From: a virus
Taxonomy: Duplodnaviria > Caudoviricetes
DNA: 64,000 nucleotides
IMG/VR virus record: IMGVR_UViG_3300038393_000327
Location: 6,683-70,682 of that record
Reading direction: 5' to 3' (one strand)
The notes beneath the pieces are model-generated. The model ran no database searches and was not told where the DNA came from. It saw only the letters and a program-made list of their open reading frames with translations. Positions 39 to 7,736 of this stretch are shown here, one piece after another; position 1 is the stretch's first letter, and each line of letters opens with the position of its first letter. The translations under genes were made by a program, and so were the position numbers.

Positions 39-266
39 TTACGTGTAGTCTTTGTATCTACCATATCGAGACTCGAAGAGTTCCATCCATCGATAGTCTT
101 CTTGGAGTTGTTCCCAATAGAGATCAATTTGATCCCAATGATCGAACTTCATCTTGTTACGATGAATATTTATTGTGGCTTCTTCTAAGTCTCCTAACCA
201 CCCAACCCAAAGAGCAAGGGTAGTGATGATAAGAACCGTCCATACGAGAATTTCGACTTCATTCAT
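39..266 (-). CDS. hypothetical protein with N-terminal transmembrane helix
   Basis: 75 aa ORF, hydrophobic N-terminus, overlaps upstream ORF in a tightly packed operon. Confidence 0.6.
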   Translation of the reverse strand: MNEVEILVWTVLIITTLALWVGWLGDLEEATINIHRNKMKFDHWDQIDLYWEQLQEDYRWMELFESRYGRYKDYT

Positions 267-495
267 CCTCTTCTTCCTTCTTCTCTTCTTCTACTTTCTC
301 TGATCTGACTTCAAATCCATATATAGTCCCGTGTTTACGAGACACATAATGAGCATCATCTGTATCATTAGGGTCATAACTCAGGAAATGATAGTCTTTA
401 CCTTGTTCGAAGGAGTCATTGATAGCCTGAAACCCCTCGATATCAATAAGAAAGACTTCTTTCCCTAGAGACCCTTTGAAAATCACAAAAAACAT
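259..495 (-). CDS. hypothetical protein, acidic C-terminus
   Basis: 78 aa ORF, AAGG SD, operon packing. Confidence 0.6.
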   Translation of the reverse strand: MFFVIFKGSLGKEVFLIDIEGFQAINDSFEQGKDYHFLSYDPNDTDDAHYVSRKHGTIYGFEVRSEKVEEEKKEEEDE

Positions 496-1389: not shown

Positions 1390-1628
1390 TCAGTCCAATT
1401 AGGACGATTGAAGTGCACGTTGTCGAACTGTTCTTCGAGATATCTGGACAGACCAGAGTCATCGAAATCTTCGACGTAGGGCACATCACCCGTCTTAGGA
1501 AAACCCTTACTTGATACTTCCGGGAGATACATTTCTGGAGGGATAGTTTCGATCTCTTCCCTTATGTCAGGGTCTTCTTGTTCTTCTAGAGAGAAACCAG
1601 GTATAGTAGAAGAGGTTGCCAGTTTCAT
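1386..1628 (-). CDS. acidic hypothetical protein
   Basis: start placed at MKLATSS within the 105 aa ORF. Confidence 0.5.
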   Translation of the reverse strand: MKLATSSTIPGFSLEEQEDPDIREEIETIPPEMYLPEVSSKGFPKTGDVPYVEDFDDSGLSRYLEEQFDNVHFNRPNWTE

Positions 1629-2028
1629 TTCAGTAGCCCACCCAATTTTCTTAGTTTTGTCCCTCAAAGGTGGGGAGAGATTTAAATAGAGCGCTCTCCC
1701 CATTCGCTCTCAACTCAGGACGCTTAGCGACCATAAGTTCTTTGCAAGAGTTCTAACAATCGCCATAAAAGTTTTTCCAGGCCATCCTGCCACGTACCTT
1801 TATGATCCCATTGTTATCGTCCATTGCGACGAGGGTTCTTTTCGAATGATCGCCTTCTTTAGGGCGTTTCCCGGCTCCCCAAGCCCTTAATTTAGCTTAT
1901 CTTTGATCAATCTGCTGGTACGCGCCCCGCGTTGCCTAGCGTCGCATAGCTTTCCTCCATTTAGGATCAGTTGATGCTAGTTTCACAGCTTTTATAACTA
2001 TCGCTTAGCTCATTGGCTATCAGCGGAC

Positions 2029-2096
2029 AAAAAAATAGCCCCAAGTGAAAATCTTCTAGGAGCTAGGCTCGACTAGAAAAAGATCACTTGGGGCTA
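2029..2096 (-). terminator. long intrinsic terminator hairpin
   Basis: 13-bp stem TAGCCCCAAGTGA/TCACTTGGGGCTA followed by a T-run on the minus strand. Confidence 0.8.
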
Positions 2097-2106
2097 AGTT
2101 GCCTTG

Positions 2107-2241
2107 TTACTGCGCAGACGGGGTTGACTGCGAGGGGGTAACAAGGGGCGCGACTTGCTCGTAGATAGGAGTGTGATGTTGTGCTGCCACACCACCAGCG
2201 GCCCCCAATGCGAGCAAAAATATCATTCCAAGGAATTTCAC
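2107..2241 (-). CDS. 44 aa peptide with Sec-type signal peptide (not in ORF track)
   Basis: AAGGAG SD, GTG start, MKFLGMIFLLALGAAGGVAA-QHHTPIYEQ..., followed by a terminator. Confidence 0.7.
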   Translation of the reverse strand: MKFLGMIFLLALGAAGGVAAQHHTPIYEQVAPLVTPSQSTPSAQ

Positions 2242-2317
2242 TTATCTCTCCTTCTGTATAATGAAGATTTGTTTATCCCTATCTTGGGCAAAGAGCTTCA
2301 TGGGTTGTAATACTAAC

Positions 2318-2443
2318 AGGTTGAACTTTTTGCGACCGGTGTGTCTACCATTTCCACCACTCCCCGATAAGTGGTCGGGGAGGTAGGACTTGAACCTACA
2401 ATATGCCGGTTTATCCATGCATTTTTGTTGCTGAACTCAACCT
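2318..2443 (-). ncRNA. CAGCAA-stem RNA unit U6 containing a circularly permuted tRNA-like domain (2335-2410)
   Basis: AGGTTGAGTT-CAGCAAC...AGTTCAACCT-G closing stem; inside: ACCGG, T-arm, CTCCCCG-ACCA, cttat, CGGGGAG, D-arm, CCGGT. Confidence 0.8.
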
Positions 2444-2452
2444 AATTAATTC

Positions 2453-2537
2453 AGGCTAGCTTTTTGCTTCTTCATATTACAAGTATGATGCAAAATCGAT
2501 AACGAAGTTATCTCTCATTATTTGCTGCAACTAGCCT
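2453..2537 (-). ncRNA. CAGCAA-stem RNA unit U5
   Basis: AGGCTAG-TTG-CAGCAAA...CTAGCCT-G; internal hairpins GATAA/TTATC and TCATA-CTTGTAA-TATGA. Confidence 0.7.
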
Positions 2538-2545
2538 TTAATCGT

Positions 2546-2794
2546 TTAATTCAATGTATGTTTGGGAGGGACATGAACTACTTCACCACCTGTGATCTCC
2601 TTCACTAATCCAGAAACACTTCGTTCCATGAACATACGATGTATTCCTAGATGGATAAAATACTCCACGAATTCTTCACGGGTAAAAGGACACCCATGGT
2701 GCTTCACTTCGTGCATGTAACATGCTTCGAGATAAACAGCCGAAGTCAGATTGTATAAACAATCACGATTTTTCAATTTGCACTGATGGCACAT
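2546..2794 (-). CDS. Cys/His-rich hypothetical protein inside the ncRNA cluster
   Basis: GAAAGGGAAAAC-ATG; MCHQCKLKNRDC... Confidence 0.6.
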   Translation of the reverse strand: MCHQCKLKNRDCLYNLTSAVYLEACYMHEVKHHGCPFTREEFVEYFIHLGIHRMFMERSVSGLVKEITGGEVVHVPPKHTLN

Positions 2795-2823
2795 GTTTTC
2801 CCTTTCTTTGTCTCTCAAAAAGA

Positions 2824-2952
2824 CACAAGGAAACCACTAGGATTTAGCCAGTTGCGGCGGACCACTCCTATTGGAAGCCTATATTTTGGGACGGACAGGC
2901 TCTTAGTGCATTGAGGAATGGGGGACAGTCTCAACACACGTTCGTCCTTGTG
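2824..2952 (-). ncRNA. candidate multi-branched structured RNA
   Basis: 8-bp closing stem CACAAGGA/TCCTTGTG; internal TTGAG/CTCAA, GCCT/AGGC, TAGGA/TCCTA and CACTA/TAGTG stems; non-coding. Confidence 0.45.
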
Positions 2953-2996
2953 CCCATTTCAGAGACAAGTTTTTAGTTCTTTTTTGGGGATTTACC

Positions 2997-3051
2997 AGGT
3001 AGCACGGGGGGTTTGCATCCAAAGCAATTTTTTATTTGCTGAAGGCTACCT
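2997..3051 (-). ncRNA. CAGCAA-stem RNA unit U4
   Basis: AGGTAGC-CTT-CAGCAAA...GCTACCT-G. Confidence 0.7.
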
Positions 3052-3079
3052 TACTCGGAGGAACTCGAAATCAACTATC

Positions 3080-3221
3080 AGGGTCGTTGTTCCTTAACAC
3101 TGGAACCGCGTGGTTTCTTAAACCCTTATGAGAGCTTATGCGTCCTCTCATTTTGACTATGCTTGCTCCACAGGAGCGTGGTTTATGAACATGATTTTAA
3201 TTTTGTTGCTGCAATGACCCT
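3080..3221 (-). ncRNA. CAGCAA-stem RNA unit U3
   Basis: AGGGTC-ATTG-CAGCAAC...GACCCT-G with three internal hairpins. Confidence 0.7.
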
Positions 3222-3231
3222 TTAATCGTTC

Positions 3232-3292
3232 AGGCTCTCTTTATACATGGAAAGCGTTTCCACGCTTAAGGTTTGATTGCTGTATAGAGCCT
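3232..3292 (-). ncRNA. CAGCAA-stem RNA unit U2
   Basis: AGGCTCT-ATA-CAGCAAT...AGAGCCT-G; internal AAGCGT-GGAA-ACGCTT hairpin. Confidence 0.7.
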
Positions 3293-3302
3293 TTAAATCA
3301 AC

Positions 3303-3365
3303 AGGAACGCGCCTTTCGGGCATGTCAACATTATGGAGTTGGTTTTTGGTTGCTGAAACGTTCCT
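3303..3365 (-). ncRNA. CAGCAA-stem RNA unit U1
   Basis: AGGAACG-TTT-CAGCAAC...CGTTCCT-G. Confidence 0.7.
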
Positions 3366-3372
3366 AAAATGG

Positions 3373-3441
3373 TTTTCTGTGAGTGTAAGCTTCGTTAAGT
3401 ACGAGGGGGTCGGGTTAAAGAATACCCACACTCACAGAAAA
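3373..3441 (-). ncRNA. three-way-junction RNA domain
   Basis: perfect 14-bp stem TTTTCTGTGAGTGT/ACACTCACAGAAAA enclosing two small hairpins. Confidence 0.55.
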
Positions 3442-3442
3442 T

Positions 3443-3515
3443 TGGGAGCGAACATTGGCGTTGAACCAATCACAAGAGACTGAAGGGGACCTCTTGTCCT
3501 TCCTAAGATTCGCTC
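3443..3515 (-). ncRNA. 73-nt tRNA-like RNA lacking a D-stem and ending in CCA
   Basis: 8-bp acceptor-like stem GAGCGAAT/GTTCGCTC plus CCA, T-arm ATTGG-TTCAACG-CCAAT, 7-bp stem with 12-nt loop. Confidence 0.6.
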
Positions 3516-3522
3516 AAAGCGG

Positions 3523-3679
3523 TGTTGCCTAGTGCCTTTCGCTTCGGATGAGGGAACAACGTGGCAAAACTCAAAGCACACTTGACGTACGGGAGTCGGC
3601 CAACATCGGGGGGATGTTTTAGTGGCCTTACCTTTTAACAATCAAGCTTCACTGTGCCTCAAGGATACACTAGGCAACA
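3523..3679 (-). ncRNA. candidate ~155-nt structured RNA
   Basis: perfect 12-bp closing stem TGTTGCCTAGTG/CACTAGGCAACA; internal CTTGAGGCACA/TGTGCTTTGAG helix. Confidence 0.5.
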
Positions 3680-3714
3680 AAAAACCCCACTAGAAATAAA
3701 TCCAATGGGGTTTT
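3679..3714 (-). terminator. intrinsic terminator
   Basis: AAAACCCCA...TGGGGTTTTTT. Confidence 0.75.
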
Positions 3715-3737
3715 CAGTAGTCTAGGGAAAAGAGGTA

Positions 3738-3821
3738 TTACATTTCTCTTACGCTTTGTATTAGAGCAAGCAAAAGAATTACTCCAAATACACCCGCGCC
3801 AAGTATAAGCAGTTGGAGCAT
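3738..3821 (-). CDS. 27 aa single-pass membrane peptide (not in ORF track)
   Basis: GAAAGGAAAATAAA-ATG; MLQLLILGAGVFGVILLLALIQSVREM. Confidence 0.6.
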   Translation of the reverse strand: MLQLLILGAGVFGVILLLALIQSVREM

Positions 3822-3833
3822 TTTATTTTCCTT

Positions 3834-4355
3834 TCACTTGTCCATCCATTTGCGCCGGACTCTACGTTTTGTTCCGACCTTTTCGATACGCTCAACAATC
3901 CGGCCTTTACCTGCTAAACCAGGGTGGAAGCCTTGTATGATCCCATATTTCGGCTCTTGCACCTTGATTTTAGCAGCATTGGCCTTTCTATTGGCTTCGG
4001 CTTTAGCCTTATCGGCCTTTGCCTTGTCCTGTAACTCATGAGCATGAGCAACTTTGCCTTCCAAAGCCATGCAAGAAATAATGGTTTTAGTTAGCTTTTT
4101 CTCTAGTTTCATGACTGCTAATTCAATCCATTTCTTACGTTCTGGACTGGTTTTGCTATCATGTAACTCTTGTTTGTTACGCTCTATTTGCTCACGCAAT
4201 CGTTTTGCGTTCTTTTGCGTTTTCTTCAACTGATTTTCTGGCAAAAGCTTAGTCGGTTTGTTTTTCGCCGACGATGTTAGCATCCCGGAATGAGACCTAA
4301 CATTTGTCATCTTTGACCATTCTTTCGGTTGACGGTTCCGCCTTATCTTAACCAT
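3834..4355 (-). CDS. basic coiled-coil hypothetical protein
   Basis: 173 aa, AAGGGAAA SD, K/R/A-rich heptads. Confidence 0.75.
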   Translation of the reverse strand: MVKIRRNRQPKEWSKMTNVRSHSGMLTSSAKNKPTKLLPENQLKKTQKNAKRLREQIERNKQELHDSKTSPERKKWIELAVMKLEKKLTKTIISCMALEGKVAHAHELQDKAKADKAKAEANRKANAAKIKVQEPKYGIIQGFHPGLAGKGRIVERIEKVGTKRRVRRKWMDK

Positions 4356-7529: not shown

Positions 7530-7736
7530 GTTAGTTATCCTCTTGTGTTGGGTTAGCGCTATGCGCCTCATAGAAGCCCATACAAGCGGTTTAACTAGCT
7601 AGTAGGATGGATCATGCCGACAAGAGAGAACGCGCGTTACAGCGCCTCTTGTGCGGTCCTATTCGATTGTCAAAGAACGGGCGGAAGTCGAGACCGGGGT
7701 TAACTCGTTTCGCCAATGCACTGCTATTCCTCCGGA

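What the first reader, a model, noticed from the sequence alone, without database searches (positions are those of the whole stretch)
2335..2410. Circularly permuted, anticodon-less tRNA embedded in unit U6
Minus strand reads ACCGG-CATATT-[GTAGG TTCAAGT CCTAC]-CTCCCCG-ACCA-cttat-CGGGGAG-TG-[GTG GAAATGGTAGA CAC]-A-CCGGT. The tRNA 3' half (anticodon-stem 3' strand, T-arm, acceptor 3' strand, discriminator and CCA) comes first, a 5-nt linker closes the acceptor end, and the 5' half (acceptor 5' strand, Leu-like D-arm, anticodon-stem 5' strand) follows. Acceptor (7 bp), D, T and anticodon (5 bp) stems all pair perfectly; where the anticodon loop should be, the RNA continues into the U6 scaffold. 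Established comparisons: YrlA-type Y RNAs have this topology; permuted tRNA genes are known in Cyanidioschyzon and Thermofilum; alphaproteobacterial two-piece tmRNA is permuted but has G3.U70 and no D-stem. Retention of an encoded CCA suggests RNase P plus 3' trimming could open the linker and give a chargeable two-piece tRNA body with no anticodon loop for nucleases to cut. GATAA just 5' of the stem could supply a GAU (Ile) anticodon if the ends were ligated (speculative).
Basis: partly seen in the sequence, partly recalled or inferred. Interest (0 to 1): 0.85.

Follow-up and report, generated by a model that had tools for sequence, protein, structure and literature searches.

The report
Phage Y-RNA-like tRNA mimic with CCA
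This phage encodes a small RNA shaped like a leucine tRNA turned inside out with no anticodon loop; it is most likely the RNA partner of a Ro60-like ring protein (a Y RNA of the YrlA type) rather than a working tRNA, and it carries a built-in CCA end that could be exposed by cutting.

Summary
Observation confirmed. Window 2335-2410 (minus strand) encodes a perfectly paired, circularly permuted cloverleaf with no anticodon loop: anticodon-type stem, T arm, 7-bp acceptor hairpin whose loop starts A-CCA, and a Leu-type D arm. It is not chance. Homologs in Sinorhizobium phages phiM12/M7/M19 and about 8 metagenomic phage lineages keep it through compensatory changes (99.5% of cells paired; 12 of 20 pairs changed on both sides). 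It is not a decoding tRNA gene, a tmRNA or an artefact. It is the tRNA-like cargo of a Y-RNA-like small RNA of the YrlA design. Its closing handle (helix + CAGCAA ... GCAAAAAG) recurs in at least 7 other units of this phage and is about 10-fold enriched beside DUF2828 genes. This phage's DUF2828 protein lies 5.5 kb downstream on the same strand, just outside the window, and is predicted to fold like Ro60 (Z about 20). An encoded N-CCA behind a 7-bp acceptor occurs in 22% of handle-family modules (P about 1e-8). That fits RNase P opening into a two-piece, CCA-ended RNA, as shown for M. smegmatis YrlA. Aminoacylation and the GAU-anticodon idea have no support. DUF7873, the partner of other CCA-bearing mimics, is absent here. 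Earlier agents of this scan found the same DUF2828/handle family on other DNA. Verdict: new variant of a known kind.

The parts
2434..2442 (-). 5' strand of the closing 'handle' helix of unit U6 (GGTTGAGTT)
   Evidence: Pairs with 2319-2327. The same architecture is seen in U5 and in the closed YrlA-like unit beside the DUF2828 gene.
2428..2433 (-). CAGCAA handle motif (in U6 the 13-mer CAGCAACAAAAAT is identical to that of the closed YrlA-like unit next to the DUF2828 gene)
   Evidence: The motif [AG]G-N6-8-CAGCAA occurs at 1.10/kb on the sense strand within 1.5 kb of DUF2828 genes, against 0.10/kb antisense and 0.11/kb further away, and is present in 16 of 17 non-redundant loci.
2411..2427 (-). 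Linker between handle and tRNA-like module, ending in GGATAA (conserved GGA(U)AA element; not an anticodon)
   Evidence: Compared with homologs.
2406..2410 (-). Anticodon-type stem, 5' strand in the RNA (equivalent to the tRNA 3' strand): ACCGG
   Evidence: 4 of 5 pairs covary.
2400..2405 (-). Variable-region equivalent (CATATT); some homologs have a class-II-type variable hairpin here
2383..2399 (-). T arm: GTAGG-TTCAAGT-CCTAC
   Evidence: 4 of 5 pairs covary. The Rfam tRNA model matches the T arm only.
2376..2382 (-). Acceptor 3' strand: CTCCCCG
   Evidence: a 7-bp perfect stem with 2360-2366.
2372..2375 (-). Encoded discriminator A plus CCA, forming the start of the acceptor loop
   Evidence: Conserved in phiM12. 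N-CCA starts the loop in 9 of 41 handle-family modules retrieved without any constraint on the loop (P about 1e-8).
2367..2371 (-). 5-nt linker CTTAT. Predicted RNase P 'leader', with cleavage predicted between T2367 and C2366. This is inference.
   Evidence: By analogy with M. smegmatis YrlA (PMC4201824). Not tested here.
2360..2366 (-). Acceptor 5' strand: CGGGGAG (C1:G72)
   Evidence: C1:G72 with A73 and CCA also occurs in phage tRNA-Leu genes in the fetched loci.
2341..2357 (-). D arm of tRNA-Leu type: GTG-GAAATGGTAGA-CAC (preceded by TG at 2358-2359)
   Evidence: (3 of 3 pairs covary).
2335..2339 (-). Anticodon-type stem, 3' strand in the RNA: CCGGT
2319..2334 (-). 3' handle motif CGCAAAAAG followed by the 3' strand of the closing helix (AGTTCAACC, 2319-2327)
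   Evidence: The same GCAAAAAG motif is in U5, and (A)GCAAAA in phiM12 and L033.
2453..2545 (-). Neighbouring unit U5: same handle (AGGCTAGTT / CAGCAA ... GCAAAAAG / AGCTAGCCT) with a different, non-tRNA-like cargo
3041..3365 (-). Four further handle motifs (GG-N-CAGCAA starting at about 3365, 3292, 3221 and 3051), marking units U1-U4 of the array. Their 3' partners were not resolved.

Best explanation
U6 (window about 2319-2442, minus strand) is a phage-encoded Y-RNA-like small RNA of the YrlA design. A terminal handle (9-bp helix plus a CAGCAA ... GCAAAAAG internal loop) is inferred to be the binding site for the phage's Ro60-like ring protein. That protein is DUF2828 + DUF7788/vWA, 466 aa, encoded 5.5 kb downstream on the same strand at genome 2043-3443, outside the window. 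The handle carries a tRNA-Leu-derived L-shaped module in which the ends lie where the anticodon loop would be and the acceptor stem is capped by a loop. The module has a 7-bp acceptor stem followed directly by A73-CCA and a 5-nt linker. Host RNase P therefore probably cuts 5' of C2366, and 3' exonucleases trim back to CCA. This would give a two-piece RNA held together by the acceptor, anticodon-type and handle helices, as demonstrated for M. smegmatis YrlA. Shown here: the structure, its conservation and covariation, the shared handle, the genomic association of the handle with DUF2828 genes, the predicted Ro60 fold, and the enrichment of encoded CCA. Inferred: protein binding, RNase P opening, and the biological role. 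The likely role is tethering or gating the Ro60-like ring towards a tRNA-binding effector or PNPase during infection, by analogy with RYPER complexes, including that of Thermus phage phiLo.
For: Topology is identical to the Rfam YrlA consensus, and the phiM12 homolog aligns over the full model length. Covariation is strong. The same genome has a closed, canonical YrlA-like module about 190 nt upstream of the DUF2828 gene, which Rfam YrlA scores at 39 bits, E 1.7e-5. That module and U6 share the 13-mer CAGCAACAAAAAT and the AAAAG 3' motif. The handle motif is about 10-fold enriched next to DUF2828 genes, in 16 of 17 loci. The DUF2828 protein model (pLDDT 79.7) matches Ro60 structures over its full length: the Foldseek top 13 hits are all Ro60, E 2e-9 to 1e-6; VIA gives Z 14-20 over about 400 residues, against 10.8 or less for vWA-only chains. 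ACCA-type homologs lie 0.3-0.9 kb from a Ro60-type gene on the same strand in G003, G005 and G007/G008, and 2.5 kb away in phiM12. In G005 and G007 the order is ACCA module, then closed YrlA, then Ro60 gene. Every element-bearing genome that is at least 90% complete has a Ro60-type gene. Encoded N-CCA is enriched, 9 of 41, P 1e-8. Precedent for RNase P opening and a CCA end comes from PMC4201824 and 10.1101/312249; for phage Ro60-Yrl-PNPase, from PMC12135203.
Against: There is no transcript, binding or processing data. The window element gets no Rfam YrlA hit even at E 10 or below, and the published Ro-binding motif GNCGAAN0-1G is absent. DUF2828 is related to TROVE only marginally at sequence level (hhalign probability 19%, E 1.3e-3; no PF05731 hit), so 'Ro60-like' rests on a predicted fold. 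Here the element is 5.5 kb and several small genes away from the protein gene. In G004 and G006 the homologs are 20 kb and at least 86 kb from the TROVE gene. Only 3 of 25 DUF2828 loci hold a full tRNA-like module within 10 kb. CCA-bearing modules also occur with a different protein, DUF7873 (L047, L168), so CCA-type modules are not specific to Ro60 contexts. Encoded CCA could partly reflect descent from CCA-encoding tRNA genes rather than selection.
Confidence: 0.75

Rival explanations
1. A Ro60-independent tRNA decoy. The handle is only a stabilising stem, and the tRNA-Leu-like body acts on its own, for example as a sponge or bait for a host tRNA-targeting nuclease, a tRNA-modifying enzyme, LeuRS or an uncharged-tRNA sensor. 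It would be immune to anticodon nucleases because it has no anticodon loop.
For: The module keeps all tRNA tertiary-contact nucleotides plus an invariant acceptor, A73 and CCA across lineages whose other stems have all changed. It lies 5.5 kb from the Ro60-like gene here, and 20 kb or more away in G004 and G006. The same kind of module works with another protein family, DUF7873, elsewhere.
Against: The handle sequence, not just a stem, is conserved and specifically enriched beside DUF2828 genes. U6 shares it with the unit directly upstream of DUF2828 in the same genome.
Confidence: 0.1
2. An evolutionary relic. It is the junction of two tandem tRNA-Leu genes (3' half of one, spacer, 5' half of the next) left after deletion, with no present function.
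For: The layout equals a tRNA-tRNA junction. The single-sequence model also hits many real tandem-tRNA junctions, mostly involving tRNA-Leu. In L029/L045 the homolog sits inside a run of tandem tRNA-Leu genes. Encoded CCA is what a phage tRNA gene would leave behind.
Against: Compensatory changes in three helices across about 10 lineages. The anticodon-type stem pairs the two 'halves', which unrelated neighbouring tRNAs would not do. The element is embedded in a conserved handle. It is conserved between a soil metagenomic phage and the cultured Sinorhizobium phages at 83% identity, while the flanks have diverged beyond blastn detection.
Confidence: 0.05
3. The partner of a DUF7873 protein, as reported by earlier agents for CCA-bearing permuted tRNA mimics, rather than of Ro60.
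For: L047's homolog lies 149 nt downstream of a DUF7873 gene (E 7e-96), and G011 (L168) also encodes DUF7873.
Against: DUF7873 has zero candidates in the window's complete 70.7-kb genome. It is also absent from phiM12, G003, G005, G006 and G007/8. ORFs flanking U6 and its phiM12 homolog have no Pfam match. U6 carries the DUF2828-type handle.
Confidence: 0.03
4. A true permuted tRNA gene that matures into a decoding tRNA (as in Cyanidioschyzon merolae), or a two-piece tmRNA.
For: Same gene order as permuted tRNA and permuted ssrA genes. The phiM12 copy gives a partial 18.8-bit match to Rfam tmRNA_permuted over the T arm and acceptor only.
Against: There is no anticodon loop and no way to form one, because the flanks form the handle. 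No bulge-helix-bulge splicing machinery is known in bacteria (stated in 10.1101/312249). The acceptor has G3:C70, not G3:U70. A D stem is present. ARAGORN finds neither a tmRNA nor a tag peptide. Rfam tmRNA families do not reach threshold.
Confidence: 0.02

Closest known systems
YrlA (Y RNA-like A; Rfam RF02553), especially Mycobacterium smegmatis YrlA (Chen et al. 2014, PMC4201824; Wang et al. 2018, 10.1101/312249)
   Same: A stem-enclosed, circularly permuted tRNA-like module in the order T arm, acceptor hairpin, D arm, with tRNA tertiary-contact nucleotides. It is encoded in phages and bacteria with a Ro60-type protein, often with sister Y RNAs in tandem. M. smegmatis YrlA has a 7-bp acceptor stem, is cleaved by RNase P, and ends in CCA as a two-piece RNA.
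   Different: Here the full A-CCA is encoded in the genome, whereas M. smegmatis has CA added after nibbling. The Ro-binding motif GNCGAAN0-1G is replaced by a CAGCAA ... GCAAAAAG handle. The protein partner is a DUF2828/DUF7788 protein that Pfam TROVE does not recognise. The Rfam model does not detect the element. The element sits in an array of about 6 handle-bearing units, 5.5 kb from the protein gene.
Thermus phage phiLo Ro60 with Yrl1/Yrl2 (PMC12135203; PDB 9KOP, 9L5Y)
   Same: A phage-encoded Ro60 ring protein with phage-encoded Y-like RNAs upstream of its gene. It forms RYPER-like complexes with host PNPase. It is among the best structural matches of the DUF2828 model.
   Different: phiLo Ro60 is a recognisable TROVE protein, and its Yrls were found by the CGAA motif. 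No tRNA-like module or CCA is described for them in the passages I read.
DUF7873-associated double tRNA-mimic RNAs
   Same: Permuted tRNA-like modules with encoded CCA in the acceptor loop. L047 and L168, retrieved here as homologs or analogs, belong to that context.
   Different: There is no DUF7873 gene in this genome. U6 is a single module in a CAGCAA handle, not a two-module RNA following a DUF7873 gene.
Two-piece (permuted) tmRNA of Alphaproteobacteria and some other lineages; permuted tRNA genes of Cyanidioschyzon merolae
   Same: The gene order is 3' half with CCA, then an intervening segment, then the 5' half. RNase P and 3' trimming open the acceptor end.
   Different: No G3:U70, no tag reading frame, and a D stem is present (against tmRNA). 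No anticodon loop, no circular-intermediate signals, and the anticodon-type stem continues into a protein-binding handle (against permuted tRNA).

Membership tests
YrlA (Rfam RF02553 / Chen et al. 2014) | Stem-enclosed permuted tRNA-like module: T arm, then acceptor-like hairpin, then D arm | tested here: met
   the same order as the Rfam consensus structure; covariation.
YrlA (Rfam RF02553 / Chen et al. 2014) | Score at or above the Rfam gathering threshold (69 bits) | tested here: not met
   The window has no YrlA hit even at E 10 or below. The phiM12 homolog scores 18.5 bits. Even the closed modules beside Ro60-type genes reach only 28-49 bits.
YrlA (Rfam RF02553 / Chen et al. 2014) | Conserved Ro60-binding motif GNCGAAN0-1G in the 5' strand of the closing stem | tested here: not met
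   There is no CGAA in 2411-2450. The conserved motif here is CAGCAA.
YrlA (Rfam RF02553 / Chen et al. 2014) | Encoded with a Ro60/Rsr (TROVE + vWA) protein | tested here: inconclusive
   PF05731 is absent from the genome. A DUF2828 + DUF7788 protein is present 5.5 kb downstream, with a predicted Ro60 fold but only marginal sequence similarity to TROVE.
YrlA (Rfam RF02553 / Chen et al. 2014) | Bound by Ro60; modified by TruB and DusA | not testable with these tools
   Requires immunoprecipitation and modification mapping.
M. smegmatis-type two-piece YrlA | Seven-base-pair acceptor stem (the RNase P determinant) | tested here: met
   CTCCCCG/CGGGGAG, 7 perfect pairs stacked on a 5-bp T stem.
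M. smegmatis-type two-piece YrlA | RNase P cleavage and a 3'-CCA end in vivo | not testable with these tools
   A-CCA is encoded at the right position and is enriched in the family, but processing was not observed.
DUF2828-associated 'handle' RNA family (no Rfam family; earlier notes of this scan) | Closing helix followed by (Y)ACAGCAA on the 5' side and (A/C)GCAAA on the 3' side, encoded in a genome with a DUF2828 gene | tested here: met
Two-piece tmRNA | G3:U70 in the acceptor, no D stem, tag reading frame with a resume codon | tested here: not met
   G3:C70 and a 3-bp D stem. ARAGORN finds no tmRNA. No Rfam tmRNA hit in the window.
Permuted tRNA gene (C. merolae type) | The ends can be joined to form a 7-nt anticodon loop, giving a decoding tRNA | tested here: not met
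   The anticodon-type stem continues into a linker and a 9-bp handle helix, and no anticodon loop is encoded.
DUF7873-associated tRNA mimic | Encoded next to a DUF7873 (PF25283) gene | tested here: not met
   Zero candidates in the complete own genome, and the flanking ORFs have no Pfam hit.

The most novel reading that the evidence does not exclude
After RNase P opening, the two-piece U6 RNA is a real substrate of the host translation apparatus. It has a tRNA-Leu-type body with A73 and CCA, and from my own knowledge (not tested here) LeuRS does not read the anticodon. It could therefore be leucylated, producing a charged, anticodon-less tRNA mimic tethered to a Ro60-like ring. This would be a phage device that links RNA surveillance to aminoacylation status, EF-Tu or the ribosome, or that protects the RNA's 3' end. 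The identical acceptor/A73/CCA in lineages whose other three helices have all been rewritten would then reflect synthetase or RNase P identity elements.
Probability: 0.08. Interest if true: 0.85.

Novelty: new variant of a known kind. Interest (0 to 1): 0.55.

Why it matters
Ro60/Y-RNA particles are known from animals, bacteria and a few phages, but their effector-binding tRNA-like modules remain functionally unexplained. This element belongs to a large, uncatalogued branch with three distinguishing features. Its protein (DUF2828) is invisible to the TROVE profile. Its RNAs share a different handle (CAGCAA) and come in arrays with interchangeable cargo. About a fifth of its tRNA-like cargos carry a built-in CCA behind a full-length acceptor stem. 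That makes a concrete question testable in a tractable system, since the cultured Sinorhizobium phages phiM12, phiM7 and phiM19 carry the homolog: are some Y RNAs opened by RNase P into CCA-ended, possibly chargeable, two-piece tRNA mimics, and what do they recruit to the Ro ring during infection? It also matters for annotation. tRNA finders and Rfam miss these RNAs, and gene callers place spurious ORFs over them (for example the 58-aa ORF at 2242-2418).

Tried and rejected
1. ARAGORN and Rfam at gathering thresholds on the whole window found nothing. Permissive Rfam scans of the locus gave only a T-arm match to tRNA and noise.
2. My first viral-contig pattern had a spacer one base too long and found nothing. 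It was corrected.
3. Most hits of the corrected pattern were unrelated terminator hairpins or coding sequence and were discarded by eye.
4. A single-sequence AlphaFold model of the DUF2828 protein was useless (pLDDT 37). It was redone with an 18-sequence alignment.
5. Sequence searches of the DUF2828 protein and its profile against PDB sequences gave no significant Ro60 hit. Only fold comparison did.
6. The MAFFT alignment of the RNA cores misplaced gaps in the stems. I replaced it with Infernal alignment to a seed model.
7. The seed model also hits junctions of tandem tRNA genes. These were removed by ARAGORN overlap.
8. I guessed that the G004 element abutted its TROVE gene across the terminal repeat. 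This was wrong: it is 20 kb away and instead follows a DUF7873 gene.
9. A strict structural descriptor found full tRNA-like modules near only 3 of 25 DUF2828 genes, so tRNA-like cargo is optional.
10. The promoter scan of 1600-4000 found no sigma-70-like site, so the transcription start of the array is unknown.
11. A literature search for DUF2828 found nothing relevant. The 2026 preprint on three tRNA-mimic families concerns other RNAs. The 2020 Wolin review was not held.

Full report
**What is there**

On the minus strand, window 2410-2335 reads ACCGG / CATATT / GTAGG-TTCAAGT-CCTAC / CTCCCCG / ACCA-CTTAT / CGGGGAG / TG / GTG-GAAATGGTAGA-CAC / A / CCGGT. The acceptor stem is capped by a 9-nt loop beginning A-CCA, and the ends emerge where the anticodon loop would be. 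RNAfold reproduces the four helices for the 76-mer. The folding energy alone is not exceptional (z -1.4), but the 124-nt unit including its closing helix gives z -2.5. ARAGORN and Rfam at gathering thresholds report nothing in the whole window.

**It is conserved and it covaries**

blastn against cultured phages finds only this 70-nt element, unannotated, in Sinorhizobium phages phiM12, phiM7 and phiM19 at 83% identity. The flanks do not match. In phiM12 it lies in a 590-nt gene-free gap near a tRNA-Lys gene. The T stem (GTAGG/CCTAC against ACGGG/CCCGT) and the D stem (GTG/CAC against GCG/CGC) differ by compensatory changes.

A pattern for the acceptor hairpin retrieved more full permuted cloverleaves from metagenomic phages: L029/45, L030/33/68, L036, L043, L047, L050/53 and L056. 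A covariance model seeded from the window sequence alone scores these at 30-77 bits. It also finds a second copy in L056 with a covarying acceptor (CGTCCCG/CGGGGCG).

On the 10-sequence alignment, 99.5% of cells pair, against 43-50% after sliding partners. Twelve of 20 pairs change on both sides, and no shuffle reaches the observed values. Two caveats apply. The alignment is model-fitted. The acceptor and ACCA were imposed by the retrieval pattern for most rows.

**What it is derived from**

The 5' half (acceptor strand + D arm) is tRNA-Leu-like. Thirty-eight of its 40 best matches among 875 distinct tRNAs from the fetched phage loci are tRNA-Leu, and the D-arm signature is almost exclusive to Leu. 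That tRNA set is itself enriched for Leu (19%) by one retrieval pattern. C1:G72 + A73 + encoded CCA occurs in phage tRNA-Leu genes in these loci. In L029/L045 the homolog lies within a run of tandem tRNA-Leu genes. Origin from a tandem tRNA-Leu junction is therefore plausible.

**The context: a Y-RNA-like scaffold and a Ro60-like protein**

The window is positions 6683-70682 of a complete 70,682-bp phage genome with terminal repeats. That genome has no TROVE or RtcB gene. It does encode a 466-aa DUF2828 + DUF7788(vWA) protein at genome 2043-3443, minus strand, 5.5 kb downstream of U6 and just outside the window. phiM12 likewise has a DUF2828 gene 2.5 kb downstream of its copy.

With an 18-sequence alignment the protein model reaches pLDDT 79.7. 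Its best structural matches are all Ro60, over the full length:
- Foldseek E values run from 2e-9 to 1e-6. Hits include Xenopus Ro-RNA complexes and Thermus phage phiLo Ro60.
- VIA gives Z 14-20 over about 400 residues, against 10.8 or less for vWA-only chains.
- Sequence-level similarity to a real TROVE protein is only marginal.

About 190 nt upstream of this gene the genome encodes a canonical closed YrlA-like module (7-bp acceptor with a CTAG tetraloop; GCTCAGTTGGTAGAGC D arm). Rfam YrlA scores it at 39 bits, E 1.7e-5. That unit and U6 share the same closing architecture: a helix, then CAGCAACAAAAAT (an identical 13-mer), and on the 3' side AAAAG before the return strand. U5 has the same handle around a different cargo. 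Four more handle motifs lie at about 3051-3365, and two more lie beside the DUF2828 gene.

Across 17 non-redundant DUF2828 loci fetched by protein similarity alone, the motif [AG]G-N6-8-CAGCAA occurs at these densities:

| Region | Density |
|---|---|
| Sense strand, within 1.5 kb of the gene | 1.10/kb |
| Antisense strand, within 1.5 kb of the gene | 0.10/kb |
| Same strand, further than 1.5 kb | 0.11/kb |

The motif is present in 16 of the 17 loci. The 'units' are therefore the cognate RNAs of this Ro60-like protein, and U6 is the one carrying a tRNA-like cargo with CCA.

**Where the ACCA-type homologs sit**

| Genome (locus) | Ro60-type gene | Position of element |
|---|---|---|
| G003 (L043) | DUF2828 | 0.8 kb, same strand |
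| G007/G008 (L033/L068) | DUF2828 | 0.9 kb, same strand |
| G005 (L053) | TROVE | 0.3 kb, same strand |
| phiM12 (L001) | DUF2828 | 2.5 kb, same strand |
| Own genome | DUF2828 | 5.5 kb, same strand |
| G004 (L047) | TROVE | 20 kb |
| G006 (L056) | TROVE | at least 86 kb |

In G005 and G007 a closed YrlA lies between the ACCA module and the gene. Every element-bearing genome at least 90% complete has a Ro60-type gene. The genomes lacking one are 40-60% complete fragments.

**A rival partner, tested**

Earlier notes of this scan say that CCA-bearing permuted modules travel with DUF7873. I confirmed that for L047 (gene 149 nt upstream, E 7e-96) and for G011/L168. DUF7873 has no candidate in this complete genome, nor in phiM12, G003, G005, G006 or G007/8. 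The ORFs flanking U6 and its phiM12 homolog match no Pfam family. CCA-type modules thus occur in at least two protein contexts, and this one is the DUF2828 context.

**Is the encoded CCA meaningful?**

I retrieved CAGCAA-handle RNAs that carry a T arm, with nothing imposed on acceptor or loop. This gave 41 distinct modules free of ARAGORN tRNAs. Nine begin their acceptor loop with N-CCA (expected 1/64; P 1.2e-8), on diverse acceptor sequences and D-arm types. Fourteen have loops of 6 nt or fewer. A second unconstrained retrieval, anchored on the T loop and the Leu-type D arm, gave ACCA on two different acceptors (L036, L168), one 'ACA' loop and one closed loop. So a full-length acceptor followed by CCA is a recurrent subclass, not a universal feature.

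The literature gives the mechanism a precedent. M. smegmatis YrlA, exceptional in having a 7-bp acceptor stem, is cut by RNase P in vitro and in vivo, and its upstream half ends in CCA after nibbling and CA addition (PMC4201824; 10.1101/312249). [quoted passage not shown] Phage Ro60/Y-like RNA pairs are also known, and phiLo Ro60-Yrl recruits host PNPase (PMC12135203).

**Verdict**

- The topology, the YrlA comparison and the RNase P idea hold.
- 'Chargeable tRNA' is untested.
- The GAU-anticodon idea is contradicted by the conserved scaffold role of that stretch.

The element works like, and is built like, a YrlA-class Y RNA of the M. smegmatis (openable) type. It fails the formal Rfam YrlA membership tests on score and on the Ro-binding motif. 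Its partner is a TROVE-unrecognised, Ro60-fold protein. It is best filed as a new variant of a known kind, within a large uncatalogued 'DUF2828-handle' RNA family that earlier agents of this scan have already met on other DNA. What this window adds is a clear case of the CCA-encoding, 7-bp-acceptor subclass in the DUF2828 context, with cultured homologs (phiM12, phiM7, phiM19) in which the two-piece model can be tested.

Noticed in passing
window 3443-3515 (minus strand): An unpermuted mini-tRNA-like element in the same RNA array: GAGCGAAT...ATTGG-TTCAACG-CCAAT-GTTCGCTC-CCA, i.e. an 8-bp acceptor-type stem, a T arm and an encoded CCA, but no D stem. I only read the sequence.
   Followed up: partly
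window 2242-2418 (minus strand): A 58-aa ATG ORF runs straight through the tRNA-like module. Given the RNA covariation it is almost certainly spurious. A more convincing small gene, with an AGGAGA ribosome-binding site and a GTG start, begins at about 2240 and encodes a hydrophobic peptide of about 44 aa ending near 2107.
   Followed up: no
L012:9640-9850 (+) and L047:2759-2902 (+): Two variant architectures. The permuted module keeps an anticodon-type hairpin (L012: TCAGA-CTTTTAC-TCTGA; L047: AGTCCC-TTCG-GGGACT, closed by a tetraloop). The closing helix emerges from the variable-region position instead of from the anticodon stem.
   Followed up: no
L110 about 7540-7650 (+) and L174 about 200-310 (+): A tRNA-like sequence with a D arm and T arm but apparently no anticodon arm, directly followed by a Leu-type 5' half whose acceptor strand pairs with it (TTGGCCG / CGGCCAA, loop GCACTAT). 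It may be a two-module mimic.
   Followed up: no
L056:3999-4065 and 4227-4296 (minus strand): Two permuted modules about 230 nt apart in a 416-kb phage. One has an ACCA loop start, the other ACAA with a covarying acceptor. A TROVE gene exists but lies at least 86 kb away, and there is no DUF7873.
   Followed up: partly
L029:1592-2143 (+) and L045:5899-6189 (+): The ACCA-type module is embedded in a run of at least four tandem tRNA-Leu genes with C1:G72 acceptors. This suggests how such modules arise.
   Followed up: no
L053, L056, L036, L029, L147 (5' of the module): The modules from genomes with a TROVE gene (L053, L056) or with no Ro60-type gene found (L029, L036, L147) share a different upstream motif, GGGTTATC (GGTTATC in L147), instead of CAGCAA. 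It may be the handle of a second subfamily.
   Followed up: no
G013:C1:181387-181722 (minus strand; genome of L130): A 636-aa ORF in a complete 424-kb phage genome gives weak hits to both the TROVE profile (E 5e-4) and the DUF2828 alignment (E 8e-4). It may be an intermediate Ro60-like form.
   Followed up: no
L020:4051-4140 (+): ARAGORN calls a tRNA with anticodon CTA ('tRNA-Pyl'), i.e. a possible amber-suppressor tRNA, in a phage tRNA cluster next to a DUF2828 gene.
   Followed up: no
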